Source of the DNA: an uncultured Methylocystis sp.
GTDB lineage: Bacteria; Pseudomonadota; Alphaproteobacteria; Rhizobiales; Beijerinckiaceae
Direction of reading: 5' to 3'
NCBI GenBank assembly: GCA_964628955.1
Contig: CAZVMY010000002.1
Location: 1-35,196 of the forward strand
Length of the DNA stretch: 35,196 nt
In this document: piece by piece, positions 1 through 35,196 of the stretch
Layout: each line of letters opens with the position of its first letter
Numbering within the stretch: the stretch's first letter is position 1
Position numbers and translations under genes: made by a program
The notes under the pieces: model-generated
What the model was told of the DNA's origin: nothing
The model's database searches: none
What the model saw: only the letters and a program-made list of their open reading frames with translations

Positions 1-62
1 ACCTGATCCCTGACCTGATCCCAGACCTGATCCCCGACCTGATCCCTGACCTGATTCCTGAC
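1..62. repeat. 12-bp tandem repeat GACCTGATCCCN, about 5 units. This is the left part of a junction-spanning array.
   Basis: Direct reading: acctgatccctg acctgatcccag acctgatccccg acctgatccctg acctgattcctg. The array lies in frame within a minus-strand CDS. Confidence 0.95.
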
Positions 63-317
63 CGCCGGCGCCTTCTTCATAACAGCATTTAGCATGTATG
101 CTGCCATCGCGCCATGCAACGGTGAGTTCATCCAAACGATGATCTTTGGTGGATCAAGTCCAGCAACGGTATATGCTGCGCGAACAGCGGCTTCGGCGCG
201 TGGGCGGTCTGCCGGCTCCGTCGACAGGCCGAATGCCAGAAACCGGTCACGAATGATCGGGATCATGGCTGCCTGTTCGGCCGTCAACGTCGTGATGCGC
301 GGGTCAGTCGAGGACAC
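1..317 (-). CDS. N-terminal part of the junction-spanning repeat protein. The full gene is 34401..35142 joined to 1..317, about 352 aa. It looks like the DUF6745 family; the family number is from memory.
   Basis: The frame is open from GTG at 317, which is preceded by GGGGAGG with 6-nt spacing; an alternative in-frame ATG lies at 335. Translation: VSSTDPRITTLTAEQAAMIPIIRDRFLAFGLSTEPADRPRAEAAVRAAYTVAGLDPPKIIVWMNSPLHGAMAAYMLNAVMKKAPAV, followed by (R/W/G)DQV repeats running off the left edge. The codon phase matches the ORF entering from the right edge. The ORF is absent from the track because it crosses the window edge. Confidence 0.75.
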   Translation of the reverse strand, partial: MSSTDPRITTLTAEQAAMIPIIRDRFLAFGLSTEPADRPRAEAAVRAAYTVAGLDPPKIIVWMNSPLHGAMAAYMLNAVMKKAPAVRNQVRDQVGDQVWDQVRDQ

Positions 318-933: not shown

Positions 934-955
934 CGTGTTGCTAACCTGTTGATAA

Positions 956-969: not shown

Positions 970-1004
970 ACGTGCATCTGATTTTCGGGCGGCCGTCAAC
1001 TGCA

Positions 1005-1727
1005 ATGTTCACTGCTGCCGTCACCTGTCCACAGGGCCATAGTCACGCCGGCGTTCGTGCCGATCGGGGGCGGCTTTTGGCCAAGGCGGACACGGCGAAG
1101 CCGGCGCGCAGCGCCGCGCAGCAGGCCATCCAGGATGCGCAGCGGGCCTGGCTCGCCGAGGTGGTGCAGCAAACCGGCCTCTCGCCGACGCAGCTCGCGC
1201 GTCGCGTCGGCGTGTCCGACACGACGCTCTCCCGCTTCCTGAACAACGTCGACTATCGCGGGGTCCTGAACCCGCTGACCGTGCAGCAGATCAGCGAGTT
1301 CGCGGGCGTGGCCGGACCAGGCGCCGCGCTGGCACCCGACACGACCGGAAGCGTCAGGAGCTTCCGCGAGGAGGGTCGGCCCTTCCTGGCCGAACCGGGA
1401 GACCCGCGTCAGCGCGCGGTCGAGGCGCTGATCGGCGGGCGCAAGAGCGCGTTCGCCTGGGTCATGCGCACGGATATCCTCGCGCTGGCCGGCGTCCGGT
1501 CCGGCGACGTCCTGATCGTCGACCAGGCCGTGCCGGCGCACGACGGCGACGTCGTCTGCGCGCAGATCGAGCGAGGCCTCGGCGCCACCACGGTCTTCCG
1601 CATCTACCAGGCGCCGAACCTCGTGGCGGCCGCGTTCGATGCCCTGGCGGCGCGACCGGAGCCGGTCGACGGCCGCCGCGTTCGGATTGCTGGCGTGATG
1701 ACCGACCTCGTCCGGGGTCGGACATGA
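1005..1727 (+). CDS. CI-like repressor with an N-terminal HTH and a C-terminal LexA/S24-like domain whose catalytic residues appear degenerate.
   Basis: The HTH is GLSPTQLARRVGVSDTTLSRFLNN. The C-terminal segment FAWVMRTDILALAGVRSGDVLIVD...GDVVCAQI...TTVFRIY...RIAGVMTDLV follows the S24 topology. The start is uncertain: GTG at 972 or ATG at 1005. Confidence 0.8.
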   Translation: MFTAAVTCPQGHSHAGVRADRGRLLAKADTAKPARSAAQQAIQDAQRAWLAEVVQQTGLSPTQLARRVGVSDTTLSRFLNNVDYRGVLNPLTVQQISEFAGVAGPGAALAPDTTGSVRSFREEGRPFLAEPGDPRQRAVEALIGGRKSAFAWVMRTDILALAGVRSGDVLIVDQAVPAHDGDVVCAQIERGLGATTVFRIYQAPNLVAAAFDALAARPEPVDGRRVRIAGVMTDLVRGRT

Positions 1728-2873: not shown

Positions 2874-4154
2874 ATGACGAAGTCGATCAGCATCCGCCAC
2901 GTCTCGTGGCGCGACGGGCGGCCACGGATCACGCCGGGGCCGAAGATGCGCAAGCTCGGCTTCCAGTCGCGCGACCTCAAGCGCCCCGATGGTACATGGA
3001 TGAACGCTGGCGAGGCGCTGGCGGCGTCGCAGGCCCTCGACAGGGAGCTGGCGGCCCGCCGCGCCGCGATCGCCGCCGGCGGGCGCCTGAAGCCCCTGCC
3101 GCGCGGTCGCGCCATCACCATCGAGCATCTGTTCGAATTGTACTTGCGCGCGATCGGCCGTGCCGCCGTCACGGTCGGTAAGCGCAAGGAGCGTGGGCTC
3201 GCGCCGGCGACCATCCGCGACTACCGGCACAAGGCGCGCGTCATCGAACGGCACGACGTCGAGCTTTGGCAGTCGCCGGTCATGGCGCTGTCCCGCCCGA
3301 TCCTGATCGGCCTGTTCGAGCAGCTGTGGGAGGGCTACGGGCTCGCCTCCGCGCGCGGCGCCATGGCGACGCTCTCGGCCGCCATCACCTGGGGCATGGA
3401 CAAAGGCGAGCTTACCTTCACCCACAACCCCGCGCACCGGCTCGGCATGACGATGCCGACGCCGCGGCTCCGCGCCGCGACGCCGGCCGAGATCACGCAC
3501 CTCGTCGCGGCCGCCGACGCGCTCGGCCGCCACGACGTCGGCGACCTGATCGTGCTGGGCGTCTGGACCGGCCAGCGCCAGGCCGACCGCCTGAACCTCG
3601 TCGACCGCGGCCTCGTCGATCGCCGACGCGTGTTCGTGCAGCAGAAGACCCGGGCGATCGTCGCGATCCCCGAGACCGCGCAGCTGGCGGCCCGCCTGAC
3701 CGCCATGCGGGAGCGCCGCGCGGCGATGACGGTGGAATGGCCGCAAGCCTGCGTCTCCGAGGCGACGAACGTTCCATGGACCGGGAACCATTACCGCCAC
3801 GTGTTCGCCCGCGTCCGCGCCGCCGCCGCCGCGGGCATAGTAGAGCTCGACGGCGTGCGGATCGTCGTGCCGACGAAACCCGACGCCGGTCTCCGGAAGC
3901 GGCTGGCCGGCGCCACCTGGTTGATCCGGCCGCTCCCGTCGATCGCCGATCTGACCGATCAGGATCTGCGCGACACCTCGGTCACCTGGCTCGCCCGCGC
4001 CGGCTGCTCACTGCCCGAGATCGGCGCGATCACCGGCCACAGCCTGGCCTCGATCCATCAGATCATGCGCCACTACCTCGCCGCACACCCCGAGCTCGCC
4101 GACAACGCGATCGCGAAGCTCGTCACCTGGTACGAGAAGGAGACGTCGGCATGA
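2874..4154 (+). CDS. int: Tyrosine recombinase (phage integrase).
   Basis: Catalytic-domain signatures are WTGQRQADRLNL (box I Arg), HDLRDTSVTWLARAG (H-x-x-R) and ITGHSLASIHQIMRHYL (His and the nucleophile Tyr). It is adjacent to a tRNA-derived att core. Confidence 0.92.
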   Translation: MTKSISIRHVSWRDGRPRITPGPKMRKLGFQSRDLKRPDGTWMNAGEALAASQALDRELAARRAAIAAGGRLKPLPRGRAITIEHLFELYLRAIGRAAVTVGKRKERGLAPATIRDYRHKARVIERHDVELWQSPVMALSRPILIGLFEQLWEGYGLASARGAMATLSAAITWGMDKGELTFTHNPAHRLGMTMPTPRLRAATPAEITHLVAAADALGRHDVGDLIVLGVWTGQRQADRLNLVDRGLVDRRRVFVQQKTRAIVAIPETAQLAARLTAMRERRAAMTVEWPQACVSEATNVPWTGNHYRHVFARVRAAAAAGIVELDGVRIVVPTKPDAGLRKRLAGATWLIRPLPSIADLTDQDLRDTSVTWLARAGCSLPEIGAITGHSLASIHQIMRHYLAAHPELADNAIAKLVTWYEKETSA

Positions 4155-21976: not shown

Positions 21977-22837
21977 TTACGGGGTCGGACGGGTGAGCGC
22001 CGTCGGCGTCAGGAAGCGCATGCGGCGGACGGCGTTGGGCAGGATCGTCACCGCCGCGGCGCCCATGTTGTTGGCCGCGAACCATGCGGTCTTTTCCGCC
22101 ACGTAATCGATCCGGCTGTTCAGCTTGTAGTTGCTGGCGAAGCCGACGCCGGATTGCAGCCACATGTACGTGTCGAACTGGCCAGCGGCCGGGATGGCGA
22201 ACTGCTCGTCGGGCAGCGGGATGAAGTCGATGCCGAGGAACGAGCGGGCGCCGATCCGCTTCATCAGCGGCCGGTCGTCTACATAGTCGGCGTTGGCGAA
22301 TTCCCGGAACAGCAGCAGCTGCGCCATCCACATCGTCGGGATCGCCATGCTGATCTTCGGCATCGAGGTATACCCGGTCGACAGGATGCGGGCCTGCGCC
22401 TCGATGGCGTCGACGATGGAAATCACCGCGGCACCGGTGCCCAGTGTCGTGATCGCGGCGCCCGACGCGTTCATGGCGCCCATGATGATCTGGTCGAACC
22501 GGCGGCCCATGGCATAGGCCGCCGTCTGCTGCGCGATCTGCTGCTCGTTCTCCGACATCTTCTCGAGGTCGGTGACGTTGATCCATTCGTTGGCCTCGTA
22601 ATCGACCATGGTAACGGGCACGAGCTGGCGGTCAGCGTTCATCACCGGCCGGTTCTCGATCGCGGTCGACTTGACCGTCGCGGAGCCGGAGCCGGCGACC
22701 TTGAAGTTGACGATGTTGCCCTTGATTTCGGCGGGCATCATCGCCGTGCCCTGGAGGCGGTAACCCTCGTCCTGAAGGACGTGGGTGACGCCGTCGACGT
22801 ATTTGGTTTCGAACCATGCGGGAGCGCGGGAGCTCAT
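21977..22837 (-). CDS. Major capsid protein (286 aa).
   Basis: Follows the scaffold gene. It has its own AGGGA ribosome-binding site after a 150-nt structured gap. Called on composition and position. Confidence 0.8.
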   Translation of the reverse strand: MSSRAPAWFETKYVDGVTHVLQDEGYRLQGTAMMPAEIKGNIVNFKVAGSGSATVKSTAIENRPVMNADRQLVPVTMVDYEANEWINVTDLEKMSENEQQIAQQTAAYAMGRRFDQIIMGAMNASGAAITTLGTGAAVISIVDAIEAQARILSTGYTSMPKISMAIPTMWMAQLLLFREFANADYVDDRPLMKRIGARSFLGIDFIPLPDEQFAIPAAGQFDTYMWLQSGVGFASNYKLNSRIDYVAEKTAWFAANNMGAAAVTILPNAVRRMRFLTPTALTRPTP

Positions 22838-23860: not shown

Positions 23861-24265
23861 TCAGGTGGTTTCGCGGACGGGCGGCGCCTCCTGCCGGCCC
23901 TCCGCGATCAGCTTCAGGATCGTGTGCACGATCGCGTTCTGGCCCTCGCGATGGCAGCCGATGCCGTAGGCCTGGTGCATCGGCAGGTTCACCAGGGCGA
24001 TGAAGGTCGGCCGCCGCAGGGTCAGGTCGCACAGGTGCTCGAGCACGACGCGGCCCTCCGGCGTGTCGAACACGCGCGCGAAGATCATCGCGCGGTCGCT
24101 GGCGTCGGCCTCGAGCTTCTCGGTCCACATCCGCCGTGTGGTGTCCGCCGCTCCCGGGACGACGTGCTCGGCGAAGAAGTCCCAGCCAGCACCGGCCGCA
24201 GCGGCCGTCAGCGCGTCGAGCGGCATCGCCGGGTTCGGTTTCGGGCTGAGGTCGCGATCGCTCAT
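23861..24265 (-). CDS. Hypothetical head-module protein (134 aa) between portal and scaffold.
   Basis: ATGA coupling to the portal stop. A gene in this position is reminiscent of the Bbp19-like genes of BPP-1-type phages, from memory only. Confidence 0.6.
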   Translation of the reverse strand: MSDRDLSPKPNPAMPLDALTAAAAGAGWDFFAEHVVPGAADTTRRMWTEKLEADASDRAMIFARVFDTPEGRVVLEHLCDLTLRRPTFIALVNLPMHQAYGIGCHREGQNAIVHTILKLIAEGRQEAPPVRETT

Positions 24266-25869
24266 GCGGGCACTCCGGCCAGCGCGGTCGCGGCGGGATC
24301 GCCCGCGGCGGACTGCTGCAACGCTTGCGATGCGGCGAAGGCGAGCGCAGCCGTCTGGACCTGTTTCGCCTCCAGCGCCTGACGCTCATCGGCCGTTGGC
24401 CGGAGGCTCTGGGGGACGCCCATGGCCTCGCCGAGCCGGTCGAGGGCTTCCGGCCGCTTGACGTGCATGTCGATCGAGGCTGGTGCGGCCGAGACCTGGG
24501 CGCAGACCGCGATGTAATTGATGACAGGCTCGACGTGGGCGAGACGCAGCGCGGCCGCCATCGGCGACAGCACCTCGGTCTGCACGAGCAGCTGATCGAT
24601 TGCGATCTCGTTCTGGAGCAGCCTCGCATTGTAGAGGATTTCGATGACGCGCCGGACGGCGACCGGTACGATCTCGTGAATGAGCCGGCCGTAAGCTCCG
24701 ACGTAGTTCTGCTGCACCTGCTTCATGCGGGCAATGACCTCCGACGCGGAGACCGGCGTCGCCCCTTTGTCGGGCAGGGACTGGTCATGCATCGCCGCCT
24801 GCACCTGGGCGCGAAGGTCCTGCAGGATGATGTTCGACACGTCGATCCGGCCGGTCGCCGGGTCGAGGCGCTGGACGTCAGGCCCGAGCACCCCGCCAGT
24901 CGATTGCAGCGCCCAGAACACGCCGGGCGCGATCCGCGCCGTGTCGGGGTTGAAGCTGCCGCCCGGCCGGTAACCCCAGATGCCCAGCATCTGGATCGCG
25001 GCCGCCTTCAGCGTAAGTTCCATCGCCTTGTTCAGCGTCTTGATCATCGGCAGGGCGAGCAGGATCGGGCCGCGGCCGTACTCCTCGCCCGGAACCCTGT
25101 AGTAGCGCGGCGCAAGAAACGGCCGGGTCCGGTAGCGCTGCGTGACGATCGGTTCGACCGATCCGGTCGTGTAGGCCATCAGCCGCCAGCCGCCACCCTC
25201 GACGACGAAGGCCTGCACGAGCTCGCATTCATCGTTCTGCTGCTGGTCGGTGTCGTCCGCCCAGGTGGTCGGGAACCGACCGGACGGGAACGCCATCCGC
25301 ACCGCCCGCTTGCGCATCTTCGTGCGCCAGAACAGCGCCATGATCTCGCCGTATCCGTCCTGTTCCAGCGCGATCTCGTCGATCGGCAGCGTGACGAAGC
25401 GCACGGGGCGATCGGCGGTCCCCTCGAGGATGAGCATGCAGCCCGTGCCGGCGCCGAGATCGACGCACATCTCGTGCATCGCCTGGTCCCATTCGCCCGA
25501 CATGAAGAACGGCTCGACGAACCGCGACACGGCCTCGAGTTGCAGCTTGATCGGTTCCTGTTCCTTCGCCTGCGCCAGCCGCGTCACCGGACCGGGCCGG
25601 AGCGCGAAGAACGGCTGGCCGGGCGGGAACAGGTCCTGCTGGAGCTGGCCCGCGAACCGCATCGCCGACGTGATCGCCGTGCTGTCGAACAGCCTGTCGA
25701 CGCGGTTCGCGCCGCGGCTGACCTGACGCGGCGGCCGGCGGTAGGGGATCGCGAACTCGTAGGCATCGTCGTAGAGGCTCTGCCAGGCCTGCTTGTCTAT
25801 CCACGCGCGGTCGGCGCGGCGCATGACGTCGGCGAGCGGCGTGGTCGTGTTCGGGGCTGCGTCGGCCAT
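24262..25869 (-). CDS. Portal protein (podovirus head-to-tail connector type, 535 aa).
   Basis: The N-terminus ...WIDKQAWQSLYDDAYEFAIPYRRP... is typical of T7 gp8-like connectors. Size and position after terL also fit. Confidence 0.88.
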   Translation of the reverse strand: MADAAPNTTTPLADVMRRADRAWIDKQAWQSLYDDAYEFAIPYRRPPRQVSRGANRVDRLFDSTAITSAMRFAGQLQQDLFPPGQPFFALRPGPVTRLAQAKEQEPIKLQLEAVSRFVEPFFMSGEWDQAMHEMCVDLGAGTGCMLILEGTADRPVRFVTLPIDEIALEQDGYGEIMALFWRTKMRKRAVRMAFPSGRFPTTWADDTDQQQNDECELVQAFVVEGGGWRLMAYTTGSVEPIVTQRYRTRPFLAPRYYRVPGEEYGRGPILLALPMIKTLNKAMELTLKAAAIQMLGIWGYRPGGSFNPDTARIAPGVFWALQSTGGVLGPDVQRLDPATGRIDVSNIILQDLRAQVQAAMHDQSLPDKGATPVSASEVIARMKQVQQNYVGAYGRLIHEIVPVAVRRVIEILYNARLLQNEIAIDQLLVQTEVLSPMAAALRLAHVEPVINYIAVCAQVSAAPASIDMHVKRPEALDRLGEAMGVPQSLRPTADERQALEAKQVQTAALAFAASQALQQSAAGDPAATALAGVPA

Positions 25870-26559: not shown

Positions 26560-26756
26560 CAGCGGCGCCGCAGCCAGGCGAAGGACCACGGGTCCTCGAT
26601 CGGTTCCATCTTGAAGCCGCAGCCGCCCGCAAGATCAGGCCTACGGTCCGCGTTCAGGCGCTCGACGACGCATCGGGTGCGCGTGCCACGCTCGATGCTC
26701 AGCCTCACGTACGCGTCGCGGCGGATCGGTCGGCCGCTCGGATGCTCGGTCATCAC
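26559..26756 (-). CDS. Small hypothetical protein (65 aa).
   Basis: ATGA overlap with the terL stop. No recognisable domain. Confidence 0.45.
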   Translation of the reverse strand: MMTEHPSGRPIRRDAYVRLSIERGTRTRCVVERLNADRRPDLAGGCGFKMEPIEDPWSFAWLRRR

Positions 26757-28261
26757 ACGCCCCAGACGTTGAAGTCGCCGCGCACCGGACGGCCGCTGGA
26801 GAGCGGCACCACGTTTCCGGCGCGACCGGCCTTGGCGGCGGCGTTGATGACGTCAGCGCGCCCGCGGGCGCCGAGCATGAGATACTGGCCGGCGTCGTGC
26901 ACGTGTGAGGCGCCGTTCTTCACAGGCCGGTCCGTGCGATAACTGCCGTCGTTGTTGCGCTGCCACTTGTACTCGCTCACGAAGCCTTCGATCGTCGTCT
27001 CCATCGACGGATCGATGGTCAGCACGGGAACGCCGTCGATCAGCGTCTTGAGGCCGAGGTCGACCGCTTCGATCCGGATGCCGGTCTCGTTGGACGGCGC
27101 CGGCATGATGTTGACGTTGAGCGCGCGGCCGACCGCCTCCATCCACGCCAGCTCGCCCGCCTGGCGGTCGGCGCCGTAGAACGCGGACGGGTCGCCCCAG
27201 CCATGCGAGATCGCGTGGCCGCGCAGGTCCGTCGCGAGCAGATGGAGCACGAGTTCGACGAACCGGCCGATGCCCGTGCCGGGCTCCGCGCAGACCTCGC
27301 GGAGCCAGCGCAGATGGCCCGACGGCAGCTGCTGCCCGATGACCATCGCCGGCGACCCGCCGGCGTCGCAGCCGATGATCAACGGCAGGCCCTCTGCCGG
27401 CTTCATCGGCGCCTTCGGGACATGGATCGCGTGCTTGAAGTTTCGGTATACCGGCTTGCCGTCGCGCGAGTATCCGAACTGTCCGTGCACCATGCGCATG
27501 ATGTCGAGCTCGTCCTCCGCGAGCTCCGCTTCGCGCTCGTATTCGACCCTGGGCTTGCCCTTTCGGTTTTCGCCTTCGGGCGCGAGGCCGGAGGGCTGCC
27601 AGAAGAAGTTCCAACCCTTCTGCTTCTTTCGCACGCAGGTGTCGTAGAGCCAGTGCTTGACCGATGGAGGGTTCGTGTCGCCGAAGACGATGCGCGGCAT
27701 CAGCACGTCGGGGTCCATCAGCTCTTCGCGCGGAGGATAGCGCCCCGTCCTCCCGAAGAAGAACGTCACGACCTCTTTCGGCAGACTGTTGAACTCGTTG
27801 AGATAGACCCAGCTCGTCTCGTAGCTCTTGAGCGCGTTCTCGTAGTCGAAGTCCTTGACCGCGAACATATCTACGAGAAGCTCGACCGGTGCCTGGCGCT
27901 CCTCGTTGAAGAACCGGAGCGTCTGTTCGATCGGGCGACCCACGCCGCCCTGGAAGTCGCTTGCGGGAAATTCCTTCGGAAACCAGCGCTGCCATGTCTT
28001 GAGCGTCGTCCGGAAAAGCTCCGTGTACGTGTCGCGGACGATCGTGCCCTTGGCGCGGATCACGCCGTCGCGGCAGATCGGCATGAGCGCCGTCGTGATG
28101 ATCAGGCCCTTGTAGACGCTGGCGACCGACTTGCCGGAGCCGCCTGGCCCCATGATGAGATCGATCGGGCCAAAGCTCTCGCAATAGGCGCCGCCGATCG
28201 GGCCGGGATATTCGTAGCTGTAGATTGAGAAGTTGGGCTCGGAGAGCTTAACCCTGGACAC
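26753..28261 (-). CDS. terL: Terminase large subunit.
   Basis: Walker A motif IMGPGGSGKSV near the N-terminus. The C-terminal nuclease-type region contains IIGCDAGGSPA and HVHDAGQY. 502 aa, GTG start. Confidence 0.92.
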   Translation of the reverse strand: MSRVKLSEPNFSIYSYEYPGPIGGAYCESFGPIDLIMGPGGSGKSVASVYKGLIITTALMPICRDGVIRAKGTIVRDTYTELFRTTLKTWQRWFPKEFPASDFQGGVGRPIEQTLRFFNEERQAPVELLVDMFAVKDFDYENALKSYETSWVYLNEFNSLPKEVVTFFFGRTGRYPPREELMDPDVLMPRIVFGDTNPPSVKHWLYDTCVRKKQKGWNFFWQPSGLAPEGENRKGKPRVEYEREAELAEDELDIMRMVHGQFGYSRDGKPVYRNFKHAIHVPKAPMKPAEGLPLIIGCDAGGSPAMVIGQQLPSGHLRWLREVCAEPGTGIGRFVELVLHLLATDLRGHAISHGWGDPSAFYGADRQAGELAWMEAVGRALNVNIMPAPSNETGIRIEAVDLGLKTLIDGVPVLTIDPSMETTIEGFVSEYKWQRNNDGSYRTDRPVKNGASHVHDAGQYLMLGARGRADVINAAAKAGRAGNVVPLSSGRPVRGDFNVWGV

Positions 28262-28518
28262 GCCGACCCCCGTACCCCGAGCCCGTCAGGCGGGTGACAG
28301 TGGCGACCCCGCAACCCGAGGTCCCGCGGCCGCCTGTTCCGATTTTTTTTCTATGTCCGGAAGATGTCCATGTGTGCCGGGGTACCCCCCGGAGGGGGAT
28401 GGTGGTTTTCGGTTTCCGGGGCCGGCCGGTGGGGCTGGCGCGACCCGGGGAGGGGGGGGAGGGGCGACCGGCGGCAGACCGGCCGGCCACGGAACGCAGC
28501 TGATTTGCAATCATGTGC

Positions 28519-29214
28519 TCAACCGCCCGTTTCCTCAATTATATCAATTACTTGGCTATCTTCATGCGACATCACATCGTGCGACCGTTCGACACGATCG
28601 ACGCTATCCCCTTGCGAATACTGCGCTTTTTCAAACCGTGACCGCAGTTCGGCGTGCCGCCGCGGCGGATCGCCTGCGGCGCCCAGGCCCGCGTGCTCGA
28701 CCCGCTCCGCATAGCCCGCCGTGGCCGCGATCGTGATCCGCGGCACGGCCACCTGCCCCTTGTCGTCGACCGGCGCCAGACGCGCCCGCACGTAGGGCAG
28801 CGAGGCTTCCATGCACTGCCGCTTGAACACCAGCAGGTCCATGACCGTGAGGTCGCCCCGCGGGATGCCGGTGCGCGCGGCGATCTCGATGACCGCGACG
28901 GCGAGCTCTGCCACGTCGCCCATGCCGAGGCTCAACAGCCCCTCGACCGGGTCGCCGTAGCGGCGCATGAGATACTCGGCGCTGGCCAGCGTGCGTTTGT
29001 TCAGCGATCCCGGCCGTCGGCCCGGCCCCCGCCTGGCGATCCCCGGCACCGGCAGAAGCCCGGGTTCCGTCGCCTCCTCGGCCCCATCCTCCGCCGACAG
29101 CAGATCGCCCTGTGTGCCACCTCCCTCCCGAGCTTCGATCGTCTCGCGCAGTCGAGCGGCCGCATCCGATCGCTCCAGCGCCGCCGTCAACCCCGCTTTC
29201 GGACCCACGCTCAT
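28519..29214 (-). CDS. Putative terminase small subunit / DNA-recognition protein (231 aa).
   Basis: It lies upstream of terL. The basic motif RRGPGRRPGSLNKRT resembles motifs common in TerS N-terminal regions. The last ~40 codons lie in an atypically AT-rich patch. Confidence 0.6.
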   Translation of the reverse strand: MSVGPKAGLTAALERSDAAARLRETIEAREGGGTQGDLLSAEDGAEEATEPGLLPVPGIARRGPGRRPGSLNKRTLASAEYLMRRYGDPVEGLLSLGMGDVAELAVAVIEIAARTGIPRGDLTVMDLLVFKRQCMEASLPYVRARLAPVDDKGQVAVPRITIAATAGYAERVEHAGLGAAGDPPRRHAELRSRFEKAQYSQGDSVDRVERSHDVMSHEDSQVIDIIEETGG

Positions 29215-29235
29215 AAAAACCCTTTTGTTTTCAAC

Positions 29236-29497
29236 GCGGTTACAGCTGTAACCGGGTGTAACCGTCGCTGTAACCGAGTTTTCTCTGTATTATCAGACAC
29301 TTATCTAGCCGGTTACACGGTTACAGACATTGACCCATCGCGCTACGCGCACGCACATGCACGGATGACGCGCACGGGCGCGCGCGCGTAGCGCGAGGCA
29401 GTTTTGCTGTAACCGTGTAACCATTTGGCTATGCCCATGATATATATGATAAATTGCGGTTACAGCGACGGTTACACCCGGTTACAGCTGTAACCGC
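29236..29497. repeat. 262-bp nested palindrome made of 12 GGTTACA/TGTAACC heptamers, two AT-rich spacers and a central GC hairpin. Candidate replication origin, pac site or late-control region.
   Basis: 29236..29276 is the exact reverse complement of 29457..29497 (41 nt). 29311..29326 pairs with 29407..29422 (16 nt). 29338..29350 pairs with 29384..29396 (13 nt). The outer and middle pairs share one symmetry centre; the inner pair is offset by half a bp. There is no credible ORF in 29215..29677. Confidence 0.9.
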
Positions 29498-29677
29498 ATC
29501 CCCCCGCACCCGCTGGAGCAGCCCTGCACCGTGGCGCAACCGCCAGCGCATTAACCTTCGCGCGCGGCTGCAATCGTGGATACGGACGCTTTGGTCAGGC
29601 CAGCGCGCGACATCGTTTCTTCTCAACGGGTTGGGGTCGGGCGGACTAAAGCTGGGTTTGGCAGGCCTTTCGTCCCT

Positions 29678-31495
29678 TTAGCCGCCGGAGACGAGCCGAT
29701 CGAACGCCACGAGGTCGACGAGCAGGCAGCGGCAGGCCACCCGGTTGATCTTGACGACCGCAGCAGGGCCTTCGCTGCGCAGCACGACGTCCGGCGGCCC
29801 CTGGCGCAGTGCACCGGTCCACACGCCGCCTGCCCAGACCTGACCGGCTAACAGGCGCTCCAGCAGCGGCCCCTTCTGTGGCACCGCGAGCTGCCAGCGG
29901 CCGTCGCGCTCGACGATGCCGAGGCCGGCCGCGCCGAGCTGCGCCCGCGCCTGTCCGGGCTCCATGACGCCCGCCTCGAGCTGATGCAGCACCAGGCCGA
30001 CGATCGGCTTCTCGCCGCCCTTCCACGCGTCGATCGTGCTGGAGAGCATGTGCTCGAGGCAGGCTCGCCAGTTATCCTCCTGTTCGGCGCGCTCGTCGGC
30101 GGTCGCGTCGGCTATGGCGCGGCCGAGCCGGCCTGCGTCGGTCACCGGCAGGCCTGCCGCCTCCATCGCCTCGTGCCCAAGCAGCAGGTCGGCCACGGCC
30201 AGCAGCACGCCGTAGGTGTCCTGGGCGCGCCCGTCGAGCCCTGCCGTCCGCAGCACCGCGCGCCAGTCGTCGAACGTCCCCTGGAAGCGGGGCCAGGCGT
30301 CCATGAGCGCGCGGAGCAGCATGCGGCCGACGACCGCGAAGTCGAGCGCGCCAAACGCGTCGGCGCTCATGCGGGCTGGATCGAGGCGCGCGAGATTGAG
30401 GATCGCCATCCGGCTGCGGTCCTGCGGCCGCACCGGCGGCATGTTGATCGACGAAAAGAAAAAGCAGTTGATCGCGCGGAACTGCACGCCCTCGTGTTCG
30501 GCGCCGCCGCGGAACATCATGGCGCCGCTCGCTGCGAGCCGCGCGAGCTCGATCACGCCCCGGGTCTTGCGGCTGTCGGGATCGGCCTCCAGCTCGTCGA
30601 CCGCGACCGGCAGACTGTCCTGTCTCACCCGCTGATAGATGCCGGCGGCGGTCGTGTCGGCAGACGCGTGGACGGCGTTCCCGTAGAGTTCCTTGATGAT
30701 CCCCTGCAGGCGGCTCTTGCCGACCCCCTTGTCGCCCGTCGCGAACAGCGTCGGGCGCCAGGGCAGGGCGCCGCCGAGGAACCCGGCGCCGATCTGGCCG
30801 ATCAGCAGCACGGGGTCGAGGGCCGGCCGCTCCCAGGACCAGGTGCGGAATGCGCCGAGCAGCTGGTGTACGGGGCTGTCGTCGGGACCGACGGGCTCCT
30901 GCCACGGTTCCAGGACCGCCGGCCGCCGCGGATAGAACACGCCGTCGACCGTACCCGTCGGGGCCGCGCGCAGGCGCTTGCCCTCGACCGTCAACAGCCG
31001 GTCGCCCGAGTGCCAGATGAAGCGGCCGGCCTTGTCGCACCAGCCGCCGCGGCCGCGCACGCTCTCGGTCGCGTCGAACAGGCCGCGCTCGCTCGCGGCC
31101 TTGATCAGACACGCATGGGCGTCGTCCACCTCGAGGCCGTTGATCATCGCCGGCCGGCTCTTGCTAGGCTGGCTCCAGCGCGGCCAGGCCCAGTAGAGGT
31201 AGTTTGGACGCAGCGCGAACAGCTGCGTCAAAATCTTCTTCCCCCACTCCGACGCGTCCACGCCGATCAGCTGGCCGGCGCTGTCGACGAACCAGCTGCG
31301 CTTGCCGTCGATGCCGAGCGGGATCACGGGGCAGTCGGGCGGCATCCGTTCGACGGGCGCGCCGGGCCACAACCCGGCCCGGATCCCATCGCGCTCGATC
31401 TCGGGCGGCGGGTCCAGGGCAGGCTGGCGACGGTCGAGCGTATCGCGGGCATCCGCGAATATGGCGCGGATGCCTTTGGTGCCGGTCTGGACCAT
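29678..31495 (-). CDS. Replicative SF3-type helicase (DUF927 / P4-alpha/D5-like NTPase), 605 aa.
   Basis: Walker A is ATGDKGVGKS and Walker B is LPVAVDELE. It lies downstream of a Toprim primase gene. Confidence 0.85.
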   Translation of the reverse strand: MVQTGTKGIRAIFADARDTLDRRQPALDPPPEIERDGIRAGLWPGAPVERMPPDCPVIPLGIDGKRSWFVDSAGQLIGVDASEWGKKILTQLFALRPNYLYWAWPRWSQPSKSRPAMINGLEVDDAHACLIKAASERGLFDATESVRGRGGWCDKAGRFIWHSGDRLLTVEGKRLRAAPTGTVDGVFYPRRPAVLEPWQEPVGPDDSPVHQLLGAFRTWSWERPALDPVLLIGQIGAGFLGGALPWRPTLFATGDKGVGKSRLQGIIKELYGNAVHASADTTAAGIYQRVRQDSLPVAVDELEADPDSRKTRGVIELARLAASGAMMFRGGAEHEGVQFRAINCFFFSSINMPPVRPQDRSRMAILNLARLDPARMSADAFGALDFAVVGRMLLRALMDAWPRFQGTFDDWRAVLRTAGLDGRAQDTYGVLLAVADLLLGHEAMEAAGLPVTDAGRLGRAIADATADERAEQEDNWRACLEHMLSSTIDAWKGGEKPIVGLVLHQLEAGVMEPGQARAQLGAAGLGIVERDGRWQLAVPQKGPLLERLLAGQVWAGGVWTGALRQGPPDVVLRSEGPAAVVKINRVACRCLLVDLVAFDRLVSGG

Positions 31496-31522: not shown

Positions 31523-32080
31523 TCACGCCGCGGGCGGCTTGCTGCGTCTGGGCGATGCAGGCAGCGCCGCGGCCGCCGGCCAGGCGCTGTCGATCGGATC
31601 CAACATGCTGCCGACGCCGGCGAGGATGGTGTCCTCGATGGCCGTCGCCGGCGGCGGCGACGGCTGGCTCACCGGTACCGGGCGCAGGGCGCGGAGCTGC
31701 ATCAGCTGCGCATGCATGGCCGTGACCGCGATCAGAAGGAAATCCCATTCTATCCGCTCCAGCACCGGCAGCGCCTCGAAGCCCTGCGGATCGCGATCGT
31801 GCAGGCCGATCGCCGAGGCGCGGCGGAACGCGGCCTCCGCGCTGGTTATCCTGTGATCGATCACGAAGCGCACCAGGTCGAGCAGCTGTCCGCGTGTGCA
31901 GTCGGCCCAGTATCGGGCGAGATCGTGATCGGTTTGCGGCAGGAACCGCATGACGACCGACGCCTGTCTCATGGTCGCATCGGCAAATTCGGCGCATGCC
32001 TCGACGATCGCCGCATCGTCGTGCAGGTCCTGCGTCACCCACCCGGCCGCCGCCGTCGTTTTGTCGAGCGCGTTCGTCAT
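31523..32080 (-). CDS. Hypothetical protein (185 aa) in the replication module.
   Basis: ATGA coupling to the primase stop. No recognisable domain. Confidence 0.55.
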   Translation of the reverse strand: MTNALDKTTAAAGWVTQDLHDDAAIVEACAEFADATMRQASVVMRFLPQTDHDLARYWADCTRGQLLDLVRFVIDHRITSAEAAFRRASAIGLHDRDPQGFEALPVLERIEWDFLLIAVTAMHAQLMQLRALRPVPVSQPSPPPATAIEDTILAGVGSMLDPIDSAWPAAAALPASPRRSKPPAA

Positions 32081-33171
32081 CTCGTCCCTCTCAGCAGGTC
32101 GTTCGTGTCCTTGCCGTGGTGCGATCGCGCCACGGCCACCGGCTTGTCGTGACTCTCCAGGCCTTCGACGGCGGCTTCGAGCGCATCCATCGCCTGCGGC
32201 CTGGACCAGTCGTTGTCGGCACCGACGACGACCGCGCGGACGCAGGGATGCCAGACCGGCGCATGGATCAGATTAGACAGGCTGGTCGCCGCCCACACGC
32301 GGGCGTCCGGGACCGCGAGCGCCCAGGACAGGCCATCCTCGATGCCCTCGCACAGGATGAGCACGCCGCTCTGGCCGGCGTCGCCTGCATCCTCGACGCG
32401 CATGTTGGACGGCCCGCGCGCGAGGCGGATCACGCCGCCCTTGACCGCGCCGAACATCAGTTTCGGCTTGTCGACCGGAGCCTTGCCGGCGCCGTCCTGC
32501 GCCAGGTAGGTGCAGTGGACGCCGGTGACGGCGCCTCGGCCGTCCCGGATCGCCGCCACGATCGCGGGATACCTTGGCCCGCTCGCGGTCTTGCGCCGCG
32601 CGCTGCCGGCGCCCGTGTACACGGCGCCTTCCCACCACTCGAGGTCGGGCGAGAAGCGCAGCTCGCCGCGCTCCGGGTTCGGCACGTCTGCAATCGGAAT
32701 GCCGCGCGCGGCGAGATAGGTCTCGGCTGGCGTGCCGCTGATGGACTGCCTGGCGCCCAGCCAGAGCTCGAAGGCTCTGCGCTGCCGCTCCGCCAGCCGC
32801 AGATGTTCGGCCCGTTCCGCCGCCTGCCGGTCGACGGCTGCCCGGCGCTTCATCTGCGCCAGCTGCCTCGGGCTGAGCTCGCGCAGCCCGAGAAAGTCCT
32901 TGGCGTACCGCACCGCCCCGGCGGTGTCGGTGCCGACCACGTAGGCGATCAGGTCGAGGATCGAGCCCTTGTCACCGGTCGCGTAGTCCTTCCACGCGCC
33001 GTTTTTCACCCATACGCAGAAGCTGCCGGGCTGGGCGTCCGCGCGCGTCGGGTTCCGCGCCATCCACCGCGGCCCGGTCCGCTTGCCGTCAGGCAGCAGT
33101 TGCCTGACCAGCGCCTCCGGTCGCGTGCCTTCCTGCAACATGGCCTTGATCTCATTAGCGGTCAGACGCAT
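32077..33171 (-). CDS. Toprim-domain DNA primase (P4-alpha N-terminal-like), 364 aa.
   Basis: The N-terminus reads NPTRADAQPGSFCVWVKNGAWKDYATGDKGSILDLIAYV. Toprim motifs are LILCEGIEDGLS and VVVGADNDWSRPQ. The start was taken at ATG 33171 rather than the track start at 33360. Confidence 0.85.
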   Translation of the reverse strand: MRLTANEIKAMLQEGTRPEALVRQLLPDGKRTGPRWMARNPTRADAQPGSFCVWVKNGAWKDYATGDKGSILDLIAYVVGTDTAGAVRYAKDFLGLRELSPRQLAQMKRRAAVDRQAAERAEHLRLAERQRRAFELWLGARQSISGTPAETYLAARGIPIADVPNPERGELRFSPDLEWWEGAVYTGAGSARRKTASGPRYPAIVAAIRDGRGAVTGVHCTYLAQDGAGKAPVDKPKLMFGAVKGGVIRLARGPSNMRVEDAGDAGQSGVLILCEGIEDGLSWALAVPDARVWAATSLSNLIHAPVWHPCVRAVVVGADNDWSRPQAMDALEAAVEGLESHDKPVAVARSHHGKDTNDLLRGTR

Positions 33172-33730
33172 GGCCGCTTCCCGTGACGAGGCCGGCGACG
33201 CGCGCGAGCCGGCCGTCCGTGACCGCGTCGTCACGCGAGGCCTCGACGCTGGCGACGATCCTGTTGACCATGGGCGGCGATATCCCGAACAGCCGGGCGA
33301 TCGTCGCCTGCGCCACCGCCAGCTCGGTGTTGACGAGATAGATCGCCTCCCGGCGGACACGTTCGGCGGCGATCAGGTCGGCGGTCTTGGCCCTGAGGCC
33401 GCGCCGTGGCACGCGACCGCCCGTGCTCACGACCGCCGGCACGGTGCGCGGATCGAGCCCGCTCTCGATCGCGAGCGCCGCGGCGAAACCGCAGTAGGCA
33501 CTCCGGATCATGCAGTCGGCGAGCACGTCGTCCGGCAGCGCGACCGCGATCGTCTGCCAGCCGCGGATCACTTCGCGCACCACCCACTCGCGCGCGGCGT
33601 CCGGCGCGGTTATGGCCAGGCGATAGGTGTCGGGATGGATGCCGGCCGCCAGCGCCAGGCGCGTGCGCGGCACGCCGACGCGCTCCCGCAGCTGCTCGAT
33701 CGCCAGGAGTGCGAACGCACCGGGGCTCAT
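33155..33730 (-). CDS. HTH DNA-binding protein (191 aa). Candidate replication initiator or regulator.
   Basis: The C-terminal segment EAIYLVNTELAVAQATIARLFGISPPMVNRIV looks like a DnaA-domain-IV or sigma-r4-type HTH. It is the first gene of the replication block. Confidence 0.6.
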   Translation of the reverse strand: MSPGAFALLAIEQLRERVGVPRTRLALAAGIHPDTYRLAITAPDAAREWVVREVIRGWQTIAVALPDDVLADCMIRSAYCGFAAALAIESGLDPRTVPAVVSTGGRVPRRGLRAKTADLIAAERVRREAIYLVNTELAVAQATIARLFGISPPMVNRIVASVEASRDDAVTDGRLARVAGLVTGSGHASDR

Positions 33731-34404: not shown

Positions 34405-35196
34405 GTCCGCACCCCCTCATGGTACGTCGCCGGATCGATGCCGTAGGTCCAGGCGACGGCTTCGTGCGGCGTCCGAACATCGGGCGGTACCAGCAGGTGA
34501 TAGGCCTTACGACTGCCGTCCGGTTCGAGCGTTCCGTTCAGCACCTCGCAGATCGCCATCGGCTCCGACGCGCCATAGCTGACGTGCCACAGCCGCCGAG
34601 GCTGGCCATGTTCGATATCCTCCGCGATAAGCGTCCTGCGCCTGCCCATCTCGCTCAGGACGCGGTCTCGGCCAAATATCTCCATCAGGCAGCGCCGCAG
34701 TTCCTGATTTTTCTCGGCGAATATCAGTTTCGGCGTGATGCGCGCCGGCTCCTCGATGAACCAGGCGGGCACGCGGATGCCGTGCCAGGCGTAAACCGCG
34801 AACCCGTCACGGTAGCGCAGCGCAGGTCCGGTTGCAGAATGCAGCCGTCGCCTGTCGTCCCTGTTCAAGGTGTCGGGTCGGTCGGTCAGAATGCAGGCGC
34901 CGCGGAATGGGAAGTACCAGCCCGCCGTAGCGCACAGATCGATCAGCGGCGTCAGTTTTCGCGCAGCCTCCAATCCGCATGCATCGCGCCAGAATGCATA
35001 GAACGACAGCCAGCCCGCGTCGTACTGCCCATACCCGCACTGGCGGACGGCTTCCCCGACCTGAACCCTGACCTGATCCCTGACCTGATCCCTGACCTGA
35101 TCCCAGACCTGATCCCAGACCTGATCCCTGACCTGATCCCAGACCTGATCCCTGACCTGATCCCAGACCTGATCCCCGACCTGATCCCTGACCTGA
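34401..35196 (-). CDS. C-terminal part of the junction-spanning repeat protein: the repeat array plus a conserved C-terminal domain. It looks like the DUF6745 family; the family number is from memory.
   Basis: The frame is open from the right edge to the stop at 34401. Translation: (R/W/G)DQV repeats, then GEAVRQCGYGQYDAGWLSFYAFWRDACGL...AGWYFPFRGACILTDRPDTLNRDDRRRLHSATGPALRYRDGFAVYAWHGIRVP. The track ORF 34401..34973 is only its TTG-truncated tail. Confidence 0.8.
   Translation of the reverse strand, partial: QVRDQVGDQVWDQVRDQVWDQVRDQVWDQVWDQVRDQVRDQVRVQVGEAVRQCGYGQYDAGWLSFYAFWRDACGLEAARKLTPLIDLCATAGWYFPFRGACILTDRPDTLNRDDRRRLHSATGPALRYRDGFAVYAWHGIRVPAWFIEEPARITPKLIFAEKNQELRRCLMEIFGRDRVLSEMGRRRTLIAEDIEHGQPRRLWHVSYGASEPMAICEVLNGTLEPDGSRKAYHLLVPPDVRTPHEAVAWTYGIDPATYHEGVRT
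35058..35196. repeat. 12-bp tandem repeat GACCTGATCCCN, about 11.6 units. This is the right part of the same array, and its last 54 nt duplicate 1..54.
   Basis: Direct reading from 35058. The non-redundant array is 147 nt, or 12 units. The ten internal units differ only at the 12th base (T/A/C). Confidence 0.95.

What the first reader, a model, noticed from the sequence alone, without database searches (positions are those of the whole stretch)
29215..29677. 262-bp nested palindrome of 12 GGTTACA/TGTAACC heptamers between the replication and packaging modules
This is the only large non-coding region of the genome. It has a highly symmetric architecture:
- a 41-bp arm with four heptamers (29236..29276; heptamer starts at 29238, 29247, 29257 and 29269, roughly one helical turn apart)
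- a 34-nt AT-rich spacer
- a 16-bp arm with two heptamers (29311..29326)
- a central 13-bp stem around a 33-nt GC-rich loop (29338..29396)
- the exact mirror image of the above, ending at 29497

The outer arms contain the 16-bp perfect palindrome GGTTACAGCTGTAACC. The right spacer includes ATGATATATATGATAAATT.

The region sits directly downstream of the helicase gene and 22 bp upstream of the terS start codon. Three functions are plausible:
1. An iteron-type origin with AT-rich unwinding elements.
2. A TerS recognition (pac) array.
3. A binding array for a late-gene regulator.

The whole region could also extrude as a cruciform. The HTH protein at 33155..33730 and the putative TerS are the obvious candidate binders.
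Basis: seen in the sequence. Interest (0 to 1): 0.7.

Follow-up and report, generated by a model that had tools for sequence, protein, structure and literature searches.

The report
Phage replication origin with twelve iterons
The mirror-symmetric array of twelve GGTTACA heptamers is most likely the phage's replication origin, read by a small hairpin at the tail of the neighbouring helicase; about 140 related prophages share its layout, each with its own heptamer.

Summary
Twelve of the window's 13 GGTTACA copies lie in 29238-29495 (0.44 expected by chance), in a mirror layout of 4 + 2 heptamers, a centre, then 2 + 4.

The layout is a family trait. Of 147 non-redundant related prophage and phage loci, 143 carry a ~250-bp array of the same design. 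There are about 60 different heptamers, most often six per half.

The design reads: outer block, AT-rich spacer with an IHF-like site, inner block, an alternating purine-pyrimidine GC-rich core, then the mirror image.

The heptamer co-varies with residues 580-587 of the adjacent 605-aa protein, not with the putative TerS, TerL or primase. That protein is predicted to be an SF3 helicase (fold matches NrS-1, poxvirus D5/E5 and SaPI Rep). Residues 580-587 lie in a beta-hairpin of its C-terminal winged-helix-like domain. Examples are Arg with G, Gln with T, Glu with G and Ser with C, each repeated in several lineages.

Best explanation: an iteron origin on which a self-loading helicase assembles as two hexamers, as at SaPI and P4 origins. 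It is a new variant, because the centre is GC-rich rather than AT-rich, the spacers look like IHF sites, and the array always abuts the first late gene. A pac or late-regulator role is not supported but not excluded.

The parts
29458..29497 (.). Helicase-proximal outer iteron block: four CGGTTACA units (29458+, 29470+, 29480+, 29489-), including the palindrome GGTTACAGCTGTAACC
   Evidence: An outer block of 3-4 units of mixed orientation is conserved in relatives.
29423..29457 (.). AT-rich spacer (31% GC). It holds only a weak IHF-like element in this phage.
   Evidence: In the family the spacers are ~36-38 nt and carry AAATCAAnnnnTTA-like elements.
29408..29422 (-). Inner iteron block: two heptamers on the minus strand, 8-bp period, pointing at the core
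29327..29407 (.). GC-rich core (68% GC). It has alternating purine-pyrimidine runs at 29344-29363 (20 nt, the longest in the window) and 29378-29390, and an imperfect stem 29338-29354 / 29380-29396.
   Evidence: An alternating run of at least 12 nt is present in 103 of 107 relatives against 1% of control segments.
29311..29326 (+). Inner iteron block: two heptamers on the plus strand, 8-bp period, pointing at the core
29277..29310 (.). AT-rich spacer (35% GC) with a perfect IHF-consensus match, TATCAGACACTTA, at 29291-29303, oriented from outer block to inner block
   Evidence: family pattern
29236..29276 (.). Late-gene-proximal outer iteron block: four heptamers (29238+, 29247-, 29257-, 29269-). 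It ends 21 nt before the ORF-A start codon.
29678..31495 (-). 605-aa predicted SF3 (D5/DUF927-like) helicase, the proposed origin-binding initiator
   Evidence: PHROG hits; AF2 model with pLDDT 83.7; Foldseek matches to NrS-1, MPXV E5/D5, SaPI PriRep and AAV Rep
29714..29779 (-). Codons for helicase residues 573-594: the loop and beta-hairpin (strands 580-583 and 586-594) of the C-terminal winged-helix-like domain. This is the proposed heptamer-reading element.
   Evidence: The top co-varying columns are 587, 580, 579, 582 and 573.
32077..33171 (-). Toprim/DUF7146 primase, upstream in the same operon. The layout is pri, then a 185-aa ORF, then the helicase, then the origin.
   Evidence: 364-aa gene call in L001
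28519..29214 (-). ORF-A, 231 aa: the first gene after the array and the putative TerS by position only. It has an AT-hook (RRGPGRRPGSLNKRT) and a confident four-helix domain.
   Evidence: It is conserved immediately downstream of the array in 143 loci.
26753..28261 (-). TerL (context: the start of the packaging and structural genes)
   Evidence: tblastn gives 31% identity to annotated large terminases of BcepC6B-like phages

Best explanation
The array is the phage's origin of replication, an iteron origin for a self-loading SF3 helicase.

Proposed mechanism. The 605-aa helicase carries a C-terminal winged-helix-like domain. Its beta-hairpin (residues ~580-590) reads the heptamer CGGTTACA. Each half of the array offers six sites (4 + 2 here), one per subunit of a hexamer. 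An IHF-type bend in each AT-rich spacer folds the outer block back onto the inner block. Two hexamers then assemble head to head across the alternating purine-pyrimidine core and open the DNA for bidirectional replication, primed by the Toprim primase encoded upstream.

What is shown: the array and its statistics, its conservation and layout in ~140 relatives, the SF3 fold prediction, and the co-variation between hairpin residues and heptamer bases.

What is inferred: physical binding, the six-sites-per-hexamer logic, IHF involvement, and where melting starts.
For: 1. Enrichment. Twelve of 13 GGTTACA copies fall in 262 bp, against 0.44 expected.

2. Family trait. 143 of 147 non-redundant loci that encode the helicase and ORF-A have a 228-282-bp array (10th-90th percentile) of one locus-specific heptamer, with about 60 types in all.

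3. Conserved layout. The pattern is outer block, spacer of ~36 nt, inner block, core, then the mirror image. The inner units point at the core. 107 of 138 loci parse as canonical.

4. Units per half. The mode is 6 (125 of 214 halves). The (6,6) arrangement is the commonest whether a half is split 4+2 or 3+3.

5. Global co-variation. With backbone identity regressed out, 1361 variable columns of ORF-A, helicase, primase and TerL were scored. The top two are helicase residues 587 (z = 7.1) and 580 (z = 5.3); 579, 582 and 573 are also high. A sliding-window nearest-neighbour predictor peaks at helicase 560-600 (0.70-0.71 against a baseline of ~0.60).

6. Rhodobacterales clade. At the column matching residue 582, Arg goes with G at motif position 3 (5 of 5 loci, at least 3 lineages). 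Thr, Ser or Tyr goes with A (17 of 17). At column 585, Arg goes with T at position 2 in 3 separate lineages.

7. GTGTC[N]C group. At column 587, Gln goes with T (16 loci, at least 5 lineages), Ser with C, Glu with G, and Lys with GTGTTCC. The Gln-T set includes L106, L123 and L205, whose arrays lie 1.1-2.2 kb from the helicase gene.

8. Structure. In the AF2 model, residues 580-583 and 586-594 form a beta-hairpin after two helices, which is winged-helix-like. The whole model matches SF3 helicases, including the SaPI5 PriRep and PriRep1-dsDNA structures.

9. Precedent. At SaPI origins, 6-12 iterons lie just downstream of rep, half on each side of a centre, with at least two per side pointing in opposite directions. 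They are read by the winged helix of the Rep C-terminal domain (PMC9371898). P4 alpha has the same order of SF3 helicase followed by a winged helix (PMC2777425).

10. Gene order. Primase, helicase, array, as in pri-rep-ori of SaPIs.
Against: 1. Position. The array is tied to the start of ORF-A (median gap 41 nt, IQR 22-56). Its distance from the helicase stop varies from 22 to 4183 nt. For a rep-linked origin one would expect the opposite.

2. Centre. The centre is GC-rich (68% here, 60% family mean), not an AT-rich unwinding element.

3. Weak subset. When the global column test is restricted to the 56 loci whose array is more than 800 nt from the helicase gene, the hairpin columns no longer top the list; only residue 573 appears, at z = 3.0. 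Part of the global signal could therefore reflect physical linkage. The clade tables do include distant arrays.

4. ORF-A power. ORF-A aligns poorly (mean column identity 17-20%), so the power to see co-variation there is lower.

5. No experimental data of any kind. GC skew is uninformative.
Confidence: 0.78

Rival explanations
1. Packaging recognition site (pac or cos). The heptamers would be bound by the small terminase (ORF-A), IHF would bend the spacers, and TerL would cut in the alternating purine-pyrimidine core, much as at P1 pac or lambda cosB/cosN.
For: - The array ends 22-56 nt (IQR) upstream of ORF-A in 143 loci, and ORF-A is followed by TerL. Inserted genes always lie on the helicase side.
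- ORF-A has an AT-hook that could sit in the AT-rich spacers.
- Repeat clusters flanking a centre, plus IHF-like sites, resemble P1 pac (own knowledge: Skorupski et al. 1994).
- Public contigs break inside the arms, although a 41-bp inverted repeat explains that by itself.
Against: - No ORF-A column co-varies with the heptamer above background; the maximum is z = 2.9 among 1361 columns.
- ORF-A types are mismatched to heptamers. L082 carries GGTTACA with the ORF-A type otherwise seen with GGTTATG. L106 and L123 carry TGTCT motifs with a different ORF-A type from L043-L047.
- L220 and L239 differ at motif position 3 while their ORF-A helical domains are nearly the same.
- ORF-A is not detectably a TerS: no Pfam hit, PHROG family of unknown function, no hhalign match to the Terminase_2 TerS of BcepC6B, no fold match.
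- The window assembled through the array as a circle.
Confidence: 0.1
2. Late-operon control region. The array would be an operator or enhancer for the packaging and structural genes, bound by a dedicated regulator (for example the 191-aa HTH protein). Alternatively it would be bound by the helicase acting as a transcription switch, without being the origin.
For: - It lies exactly at the early/late boundary, with only RBS-sized room before ORF-A.
- An AATAAAA-type element recurs between the array and the ORF-A start: 39 of 143 loci for the exact hexamer ATAAAA, against 0.6% of control windows.
- SV40 large T antigen uses its origin sites for transcription control as well (own knowledge).
Against: - No sigma-70-like promoter was found in 28900-29900.
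- Two-fold symmetry, six sites per half and an SF3-helicase reader are what helicase loading needs, not a directional promoter.
- The heptamer is absent from the repressor/cro region and elsewhere in the window.
- No family stood out among the 16 ORF families present in at least 40 loci; the 191-aa HTH protein was not identified among them or tested separately.
Confidence: 0.08
3. A structural or recombination site unrelated to replication: a cruciform-forming palindrome, an attP-like intasome site, a telomere-resolution site or a partition centromere.
For: - Single strands of 29230-29503 fold to -104 kcal/mol (z = -17.7).
- Arm-type repeats, IHF-like sites and a core resemble lambda attP. Heptamer boxes around an IHF site resemble P1 parS (own knowledge).
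Against: - The array is intact inside integrated prophages on large bacterial contigs, so it is not the attP used for integration.
- The centre is not a perfect palindrome, as a telomere-resolution site requires.
- Spacers and core are not conserved as complementary sequence, only as site layout.
- The phage integrates (integrase at 2874-4154), so it has no evident need for a centromere.
Confidence: 0.03

Closest known systems
SaPI (Staphylococcus aureus pathogenicity island) pri-rep-ori replicon
   Same: - Gene order is primase, SF3 helicase-initiator, origin.
- There are 6-12 short iterons, half on each side of a centre, with at least two per side pointing in opposite directions.
- Specificity resides in a C-terminal winged-helix domain of the helicase, and many element-specific specificities exist (PMC9371898).
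- The predicted fold of the window's helicase matches PriRep5 (7ola) and PriRep1-dsDNA (7pds).
   Different: - The centre here is a GC-rich alternating purine-pyrimidine tract, not an AT-rich melt region.
- There are four blocks with two AT-rich spacers that look like IHF sites.
- The units are heptamers or octamers.
- In relatives the array stays next to the first late gene and can lie up to 4 kb from the helicase gene.
- The host is an alphaproteobacterial temperate podovirus, not a Gram-positive satellite.
- There is no detectable sequence homology.
Satellite phage P4 alpha protein with ori/crr type I iterons
   Same: Primase and SF3 helicase functions come with a C-terminal winged-helix origin-binding domain that reads short repeated octamers (PMC2777425; iteron details from own knowledge).
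   Different: - P4 fuses the primase and helicase in one protein and needs a second cis site (crr).
- Here the primase and helicase are separate genes, and no second heptamer cluster exists in the genome.
Polyomavirus (SV40) core origin and large T antigen
   Same: Inverted sets of short repeats (GAGGC) nucleate a head-to-head SF3 double hexamer. The origin lies between the early and late transcription units (own knowledge).
   Different: - The SV40 pentamers are adjacent, and the flanking AT tract and early palindrome melt.
- Here the inverted inner blocks are ~55-80 bp apart, and additional outer blocks exist.
Phage P1 pac site and lambda cosB
   Same: Clusters of short repeats lie on both sides of a central site (P1), or repeats are separated by an IHF bend (lambda R3-I1-R2). 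Both lie next to the terminase genes (own knowledge).
   Different: Those repeats are read by the small terminase. Here the co-variation points to the helicase, not the putative TerS.

Membership tests
Iteron origin of a self-loading SF3 helicase (SaPI Rep / P4 alpha type) | Six to twelve copies of a short (5-8 bp) repeat clustered in a non-coding stretch | tested here: met
   Twelve heptamers in 262 bp against 0.44 expected. Relatives have a median of 8 exact copies and a mode of 12 when one mismatch is allowed.
Iteron origin of a self-loading SF3 helicase (SaPI Rep / P4 alpha type) | Repeats in two sets around a centre, with at least two per side pointing in opposite directions | tested here: met
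   Inner blocks at 29311/29319 (+) and 29408/29416 (-). The same pattern holds in 107 of 138 relatives.
Iteron origin of a self-loading SF3 helicase (SaPI Rep / P4 alpha type) | Located immediately downstream of the initiator-helicase gene | tested here: inconclusive
   In the window the array starts 181 nt after the helicase stop. In relatives the distance is 22-4183 nt, while the distance to ORF-A is constant.
Iteron origin of a self-loading SF3 helicase (SaPI Rep / P4 alpha type) | AT-rich central region that melts | tested here: not met
   The core is 68% GC with alternating purine-pyrimidine runs. The AT-rich parts are the two lateral spacers.
Iteron origin of a self-loading SF3 helicase (SaPI Rep / P4 alpha type) | The initiator is an SF3 helicase with a C-terminal winged-helix DNA-binding domain | tested here: met
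   The AF2 model has pLDDT 83.7, with a C-terminal helix-helix-beta-hairpin. Foldseek matches NrS-1, D5/E5, SaPI PriRep and AAV Rep at E of about 1e-6 to 1e-7. This rests on prediction only, and the winged-helix label is by topology.
Iteron origin of a self-loading SF3 helicase (SaPI Rep / P4 alpha type) | The initiator's C-terminal domain specifically recognises the iterons | tested here: met
   Indirect evidence, by co-variation. Hairpin columns 587 and 580 rank top of 1361. Residue-base codes recur in several lineages. Physical binding cannot be tested with these tools.
Iteron origin of a self-loading SF3 helicase (SaPI Rep / P4 alpha type) | The sequence supports initiator-dependent replication | not testable with these tools
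   Needs a plasmid replication assay or origin mapping.
Terminase recognition site (pac/cos; P1 pac, lambda cosB, SPP1 pac) | Repeats recognised by the small terminase subunit | tested here: inconclusive
   No ORF-A column co-varies above background, and ORF-A types mismatch heptamer types. The ORF-A alignment is weak, and its TerS identity is unproven.
Terminase recognition site (pac/cos; P1 pac, lambda cosB, SPP1 pac) | Virion DNA ends or the packaging series start at the site | not testable with these tools
   No reads are available. The contig is circular. Contig breaks in the arms are explained by the repeats.
Lambda-type attP | The site is split into attL and attR in the integrated prophage | tested here: not met
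   The arrays are intact inside prophages on bacterial contigs of up to several Mb.
Telomere-resolution site (telRL of N15-type phages) | Perfect dyad symmetry through the centre, plus a protelomerase | tested here: not met
   The centre (29355-29379) is not palindromic. The phage has an integrase and integrates.

The most novel reading that the evidence does not exclude
The array may be more than an origin: a coupled origin and late-gene switch. The helicase double hexamer would assemble on 2 x 6 iterons folded by IHF. It would open or flip the Z-DNA-prone purine-pyrimidine core, rather than an AT-rich element. That event would license transcription, or packaging, of the gene that always starts ~40 nt away.

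This would explain why the origin is welded to the first late gene rather than to its own initiator gene. Separately, the hairpin residue-to-base relations amount to a readable specificity code across ~60 natural, mutually orthogonal initiator-origin pairs.
Probability: 0.2. Interest if true: 0.8.

Novelty: new variant of a known kind. Interest (0 to 1): 0.6.

Why it matters
- It assigns a replication origin and its initiator to a large family of alphaproteobacterial temperate podoviruses and prophages with no cultured relative in the phage collection searched. The hosts include Methylobacterium, Bosea, Rhodopseudomonas, Aurantimonas, Stappia and many Rhodobacterales.

- It shows a conserved origin design: 2 x 6 sites, IHF-like bends and a GC-rich alternating core. 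This differs from the textbook design of iterons plus an AT-rich unwinding element.

- The family offers about 60 natural helicase-iteron specificities, with simple residue-to-base relations in a single beta-hairpin. That is a testable recognition code and a possible source of orthogonal replicons for alphaproteobacteria.

- It raises a concrete question: why is the origin locked to the first late gene?

Tried and rejected
- DNA similarity of 28400-30400 to cultured phages: no match.
- Close-relative search with the single helicase protein in IMG/VR: nothing.
- Scan of IMG/VR for GGTTACAGCTGTAACC: five single chance palindromes, no arrays.
- Promoter and terminator scan of 28900-29900: no sigma-70-like promoter and one weak terminator-like site inside ORF-A.
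- ORF-A identification. Pfam, PHROGs, NCBIfam, a PDB profile search, a single-sequence homologue search, hhalign against the BcepC6B TerS, and an AF2 model with Foldseek were all tried. They gave only an AT-hook match and an unknown-function PHROG.
- Whole-protein Mantel-type correlations and nearest-neighbour prediction over 16 ORF families: all about equal, because phylogeny dominates. They could not identify the binder.
- Searching for closely related pairs with different heptamers: none closer than 76% helicase identity.
- Cumulative GC skew: uninformative, since nearly all genes are on one strand.
- Sequence search of the helicase profile against PDB: only a P-loop match.
- Two SaPI origin papers could not be read.
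- attP, telomere-resolution and centromere readings were considered and rejected (see rival explanations).

Full report
**1. What is in the window**

The window is a circularly assembled genome of ~35.1 kb. It has a 54-bp terminal overlap that runs through a 12-bp tandem repeat.

It encodes a temperate podovirus-like phage:
- A CI-like HTH/S24 repressor (972-1727, plus strand) and an integrase (2874-4154, plus strand).
- On the minus strand, lysis and tail genes, the major head protein (21977-22837) and a T7-type portal (24262-25869).
- A large terminase (26753-28261), 31% identical to annotated TerL of BcepC6B-like phages.
- A 231-aa ORF (28519-29214, here called ORF-A), followed upstream by the 463-nt gap that holds the finding.
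- A 605-aa helicase-like ORF (29678-31495), a 185-aa ORF, a Toprim/DUF7146 primase and small early genes.

Read on the coding (minus) strand, the order is therefore primase, helicase, array, ORF-A, TerL.

**2.

GGTTACA occurs 13 times in the window, and 12 of these lie between 29238 and 29495. Shuffles give 0.44 on average and never more than 2.

The heptamer blocks are exact mirror images: 29236-29276 with 29458-29497, and 29311-29326 with 29408-29422. The AT-rich spacers (35% and 31% GC) and the 68%-GC core are not exact mirror images. The central stem is 17 nt with a 25-nt loop.

This is the largest but not the only non-coding gap. As single strands the region folds to -104 kcal/mol (z = -17.7).

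**3. The array is a family trait, and each phage has its own heptamer**

The helicase has more than 500 homologues. None is in a cultured phage apart from two unannotated faecal contigs at ~35% identity.

I fetched 234 related loci from bacterial genomes, IMG/VR and metagenomes. They are prophages of Hyphomicrobiales, Rhodobacterales and other alphaproteobacteria.

Of 147 non-redundant loci with both helicase and ORF-A, 143 carry at least 5 exact copies of a single heptamer within 320 bp, between helicase and ORF-A. There are about 60 heptamer types, for example:
- GGTTACA, GGTTATG, GGTTAG, GGTTGAA
- GTGTCTC, GTGTCCC, GTGTCGC
- TGGAACG, TGTCTAA, CCACAACG, CCACGACA.

The layout is conserved:
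- An outer block of 3-4 units in mixed orientation.
- A spacer of ~36 nt.
- An inner block of 2-3 direct units, mostly with an 8-bp period, pointing at the centre.
- A core gap of ~55 nt.
- The mirror image of the above (spacer ~38 nt).

107 of 138 loci parse as canonical. Allowing one mismatch, the number of units per half has a sharp mode at six (125 of 214 halves). The (6,6) arrangement is the commonest, whether a half is split 4+2 or 3+3.

**4.

*The core.* It is an alternating purine-pyrimidine tract. The longest alternating run has a median of 23 nt, against 6 nt in control segments of the same loci. A run of at least 12 nt occurs in 103 of 107 cores, against 1% of controls. In the window the runs are 29344-29363 (the longest in the whole window) and 29378-29390.

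*The spacers.* Both carry, in mirror orientation (outer to inner), an element with consensus AAATCAAnnnnTTA at a fixed offset of ~15 nt from the outer block. A match with at most one mismatch to the IHF consensus WATCARNNNNTTR is found in 48% of helicase-side spacers and 34% of ORF-A-side spacers. Composition-matched shuffles give 3%. The window has a perfect match at 29291-29303, one of only three in 35 kb, against 0.12 expected.

**5. Where the array sits**

The gap from array end to ORF-A start is nearly constant (median 41 nt, IQR 22-56). The gap from helicase stop to array ranges from 22 to 4183 nt, so extra genes are always inserted on the helicase side.

Taken alone, this favours a link with ORF-A and TerL. 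I therefore tested the pac idea seriously.

**6. Who reads the heptamer**

ORF-A is a fast-evolving family, with a mean column identity of 17-20%. It has an HMG-I/Y-like AT-hook (GRGRPKGxxNK) and a confident four-helix domain. It has no Pfam or NCBIfam family and only an unknown-function PHROG. It shows no similarity to the Terminase_2 TerS of BcepC6B and has no fold match.

Whole-protein correlations could not separate candidates, because phylogeny dominates. Finer tests did:
- *Sliding-window predictor.* A nearest-neighbour predictor peaks at helicase residues 560-600 (0.70-0.71 against a baseline of ~0.60). The ORF-A maximum is 0.66.
- *Column test.* With backbone identity regressed out, the top two of 1361 variable columns are helicase residues 587 (z = 7.1) and 580 (z = 5.3). 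Residues 579, 582 and 573 also rank high. The best ORF-A column reaches z = 2.9.
- *Rhodobacterales clade* (motif C[C/T][A/G]C[A/G/T]AC). The two best column-to-base associations across all four proteins are both in this hairpin. Arg at the column of residue 582 goes with G at motif position 3 (5 of 5). Thr, Ser or Tyr goes with A (17 of 17). Arg at column 585 goes with T at position 2.
- *Independent switches.* On a tree built from helicase residues 1-540, these switches occur in at least three separate lineages each. One example is the closest pair, L220 and L239.
- *GTGTC[N]C group.* Column 587 is Gln with T (16 loci, at least 5 lineages), Ser with C, Glu with G and Lys with GTGTTCC. The Gln-T set includes loci whose array lies 1.1-2.2 kb from the helicase gene (L106, L123, L205). 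The ORF-A of L106 and L123 is of a different type from that of other TGTCT loci.

Caveat: the global column test loses the hairpin signal when restricted to the 56 loci with arrays more than 800 nt from the helicase gene. Linkage may therefore contribute to the global statistic.

**7. What the helicase is**

The AF2 model (pLDDT 83.7) has a P-loop core. Its C-terminal module comprises helices 543-548 and 558-564 and a beta-hairpin at 580-583 and 586-594. The co-varying residues lie on the two strands and the tip of that hairpin.

Foldseek matches SF3 helicases: NrS-1, monkeypox E5 and vaccinia D5, ASFV PrimPol, AAV Rep, and the SaPI5 PriRep and PriRep1-dsDNA structures.

**8. Comparison with what is known**

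SaPI Reps are self-loading SF3 helicases whose C-terminal winged helix reads penta- or hexanucleotide iterons. Six to twelve iterons lie just downstream of rep, half on each side of a centre, with at least two per side pointing in opposite directions (PMC9371898). P4 alpha has the same order of SF3 helicase followed by a winged helix (PMC2777425).

The window's array meets the repeat number, the two-sided inverted layout, the initiator type and (indirectly) the specificity criterion.

It does not meet the AT-rich-centre criterion, and its position relative to the helicase gene is not conserved. It adds IHF-like spacers, outer blocks and a purine-pyrimidine core. I therefore file it as a new variant of a known kind, not as a SaPI-type origin in the strict sense.

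**9. Mechanism proposed, with shown and inferred steps marked**

Shown:
- The site array, its conservation and its symmetry.
- Six units per half.
- The SF3 fold prediction.
- The hairpin-heptamer co-variation.

Inferred:
- Each half-origin presents six sites to the six C-terminal domains of one hexamer.
- An IHF-type U-turn in the spacer brings the outer block alongside the inner block.
- Two hexamers face each other across the core and open it, or the adjacent AT-rich spacers.
- The separate Toprim primase primes synthesis.

Unexplained: why the origin is welded to the first late gene. One possibility, by analogy with SV40, is that initiator binding or origin firing also controls late transcription. 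A recurrent AATAAAA element between the array and ORF-A may belong to that function.

**10. Verdict**

Confidence that this is a helicase-bound iteron origin is about 0.78. The pac/cos reading stands at about 0.10 and a pure late-regulator reading at about 0.08.

Interest is moderate to high. The kind is known, but the design, the breadth of the family and the readable specificity code are new and directly testable.

Noticed in passing
window 1-63 and 35053-35196: A 12-bp tandem repeat (ACCTGATCCCTG, about 17 copies in all) spans the junction of the circular assembly. The 54-bp terminal overlap lies inside it. It may be a coding repeat, and copy number may be collapsed by the assembler.
   Followed up: partly
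window 28262-28518: A 257-nt stretch between ORF-A and TerL has no convincing ORF and contains C-rich/G-rich hairpin-like sequence (CCCCCTCCGGGGGG). In many relatives a small ORF of 60-135 aa occupies this position. It could be the true small terminase or a regulatory element.
   Followed up: partly
window 29215-29235, and the equivalent position in loci such as L013, L015, L024, L029-L035: A recurrent (C/G)AATAAAA(A/T)A element followed by GGGG lies between the array and the ORF-A start. The exact ATAAAA hexamer is found in 39 of 143 loci, against 0.6% of control windows. It may be a late-promoter or translation-initiation element. The window has a weaker variant, TTGAAAACAAAAGGG.
   Followed up: partly
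window 28519-29214 (minus strand), residues ~60-75: ORF-A and its ~190 relatives carry a eukaryote-like AT-hook (RGRPKGxxNK; best PDB profile match HMG-I/Y, E = 0.04), followed by a confidently predicted four-helix domain and an acidic tail. The family is annotated only as hypothetical (phrog_15261).
   Followed up: partly
window 942-954 (minus strand): A perfect IHF-consensus match (TATCAACAGGTTA) lies just upstream of the CI-like repressor start (972), in the 311-nt repressor-side intergenic region. It is one of only three matches in the window.
   Followed up: no
L001 and L002 (Logan contigs carrying the identical helicase): Both public contigs end exactly 210 nt after the helicase stop, inside the helicase-proximal 41-bp arm. 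This is what k-mer assemblers do at inverted repeats, so such origins will often be missing or split in short-read assemblies.
   Followed up: partly
window 32077-33360 against 33155-33730 (minus strand): The longest primase ORF (427 aa) overlaps the 191-aa HTH ORF by about 200 nt. The gene call on L001 gives a 364-aa primase (window 32077-33171), which removes most of the overlap.
   Followed up: partly
MT835534.1 and MT835930.1 (human faecal 'Bacteriophage sp.' records): These are the only records in the cultured/GenBank phage collection with a helicase of this family (~35% identity). MT835534 also has the related TerL about 2.2 kb downstream, so the synteny may extend beyond alphaproteobacterial hosts. 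I did not check them for an array.
   Followed up: no
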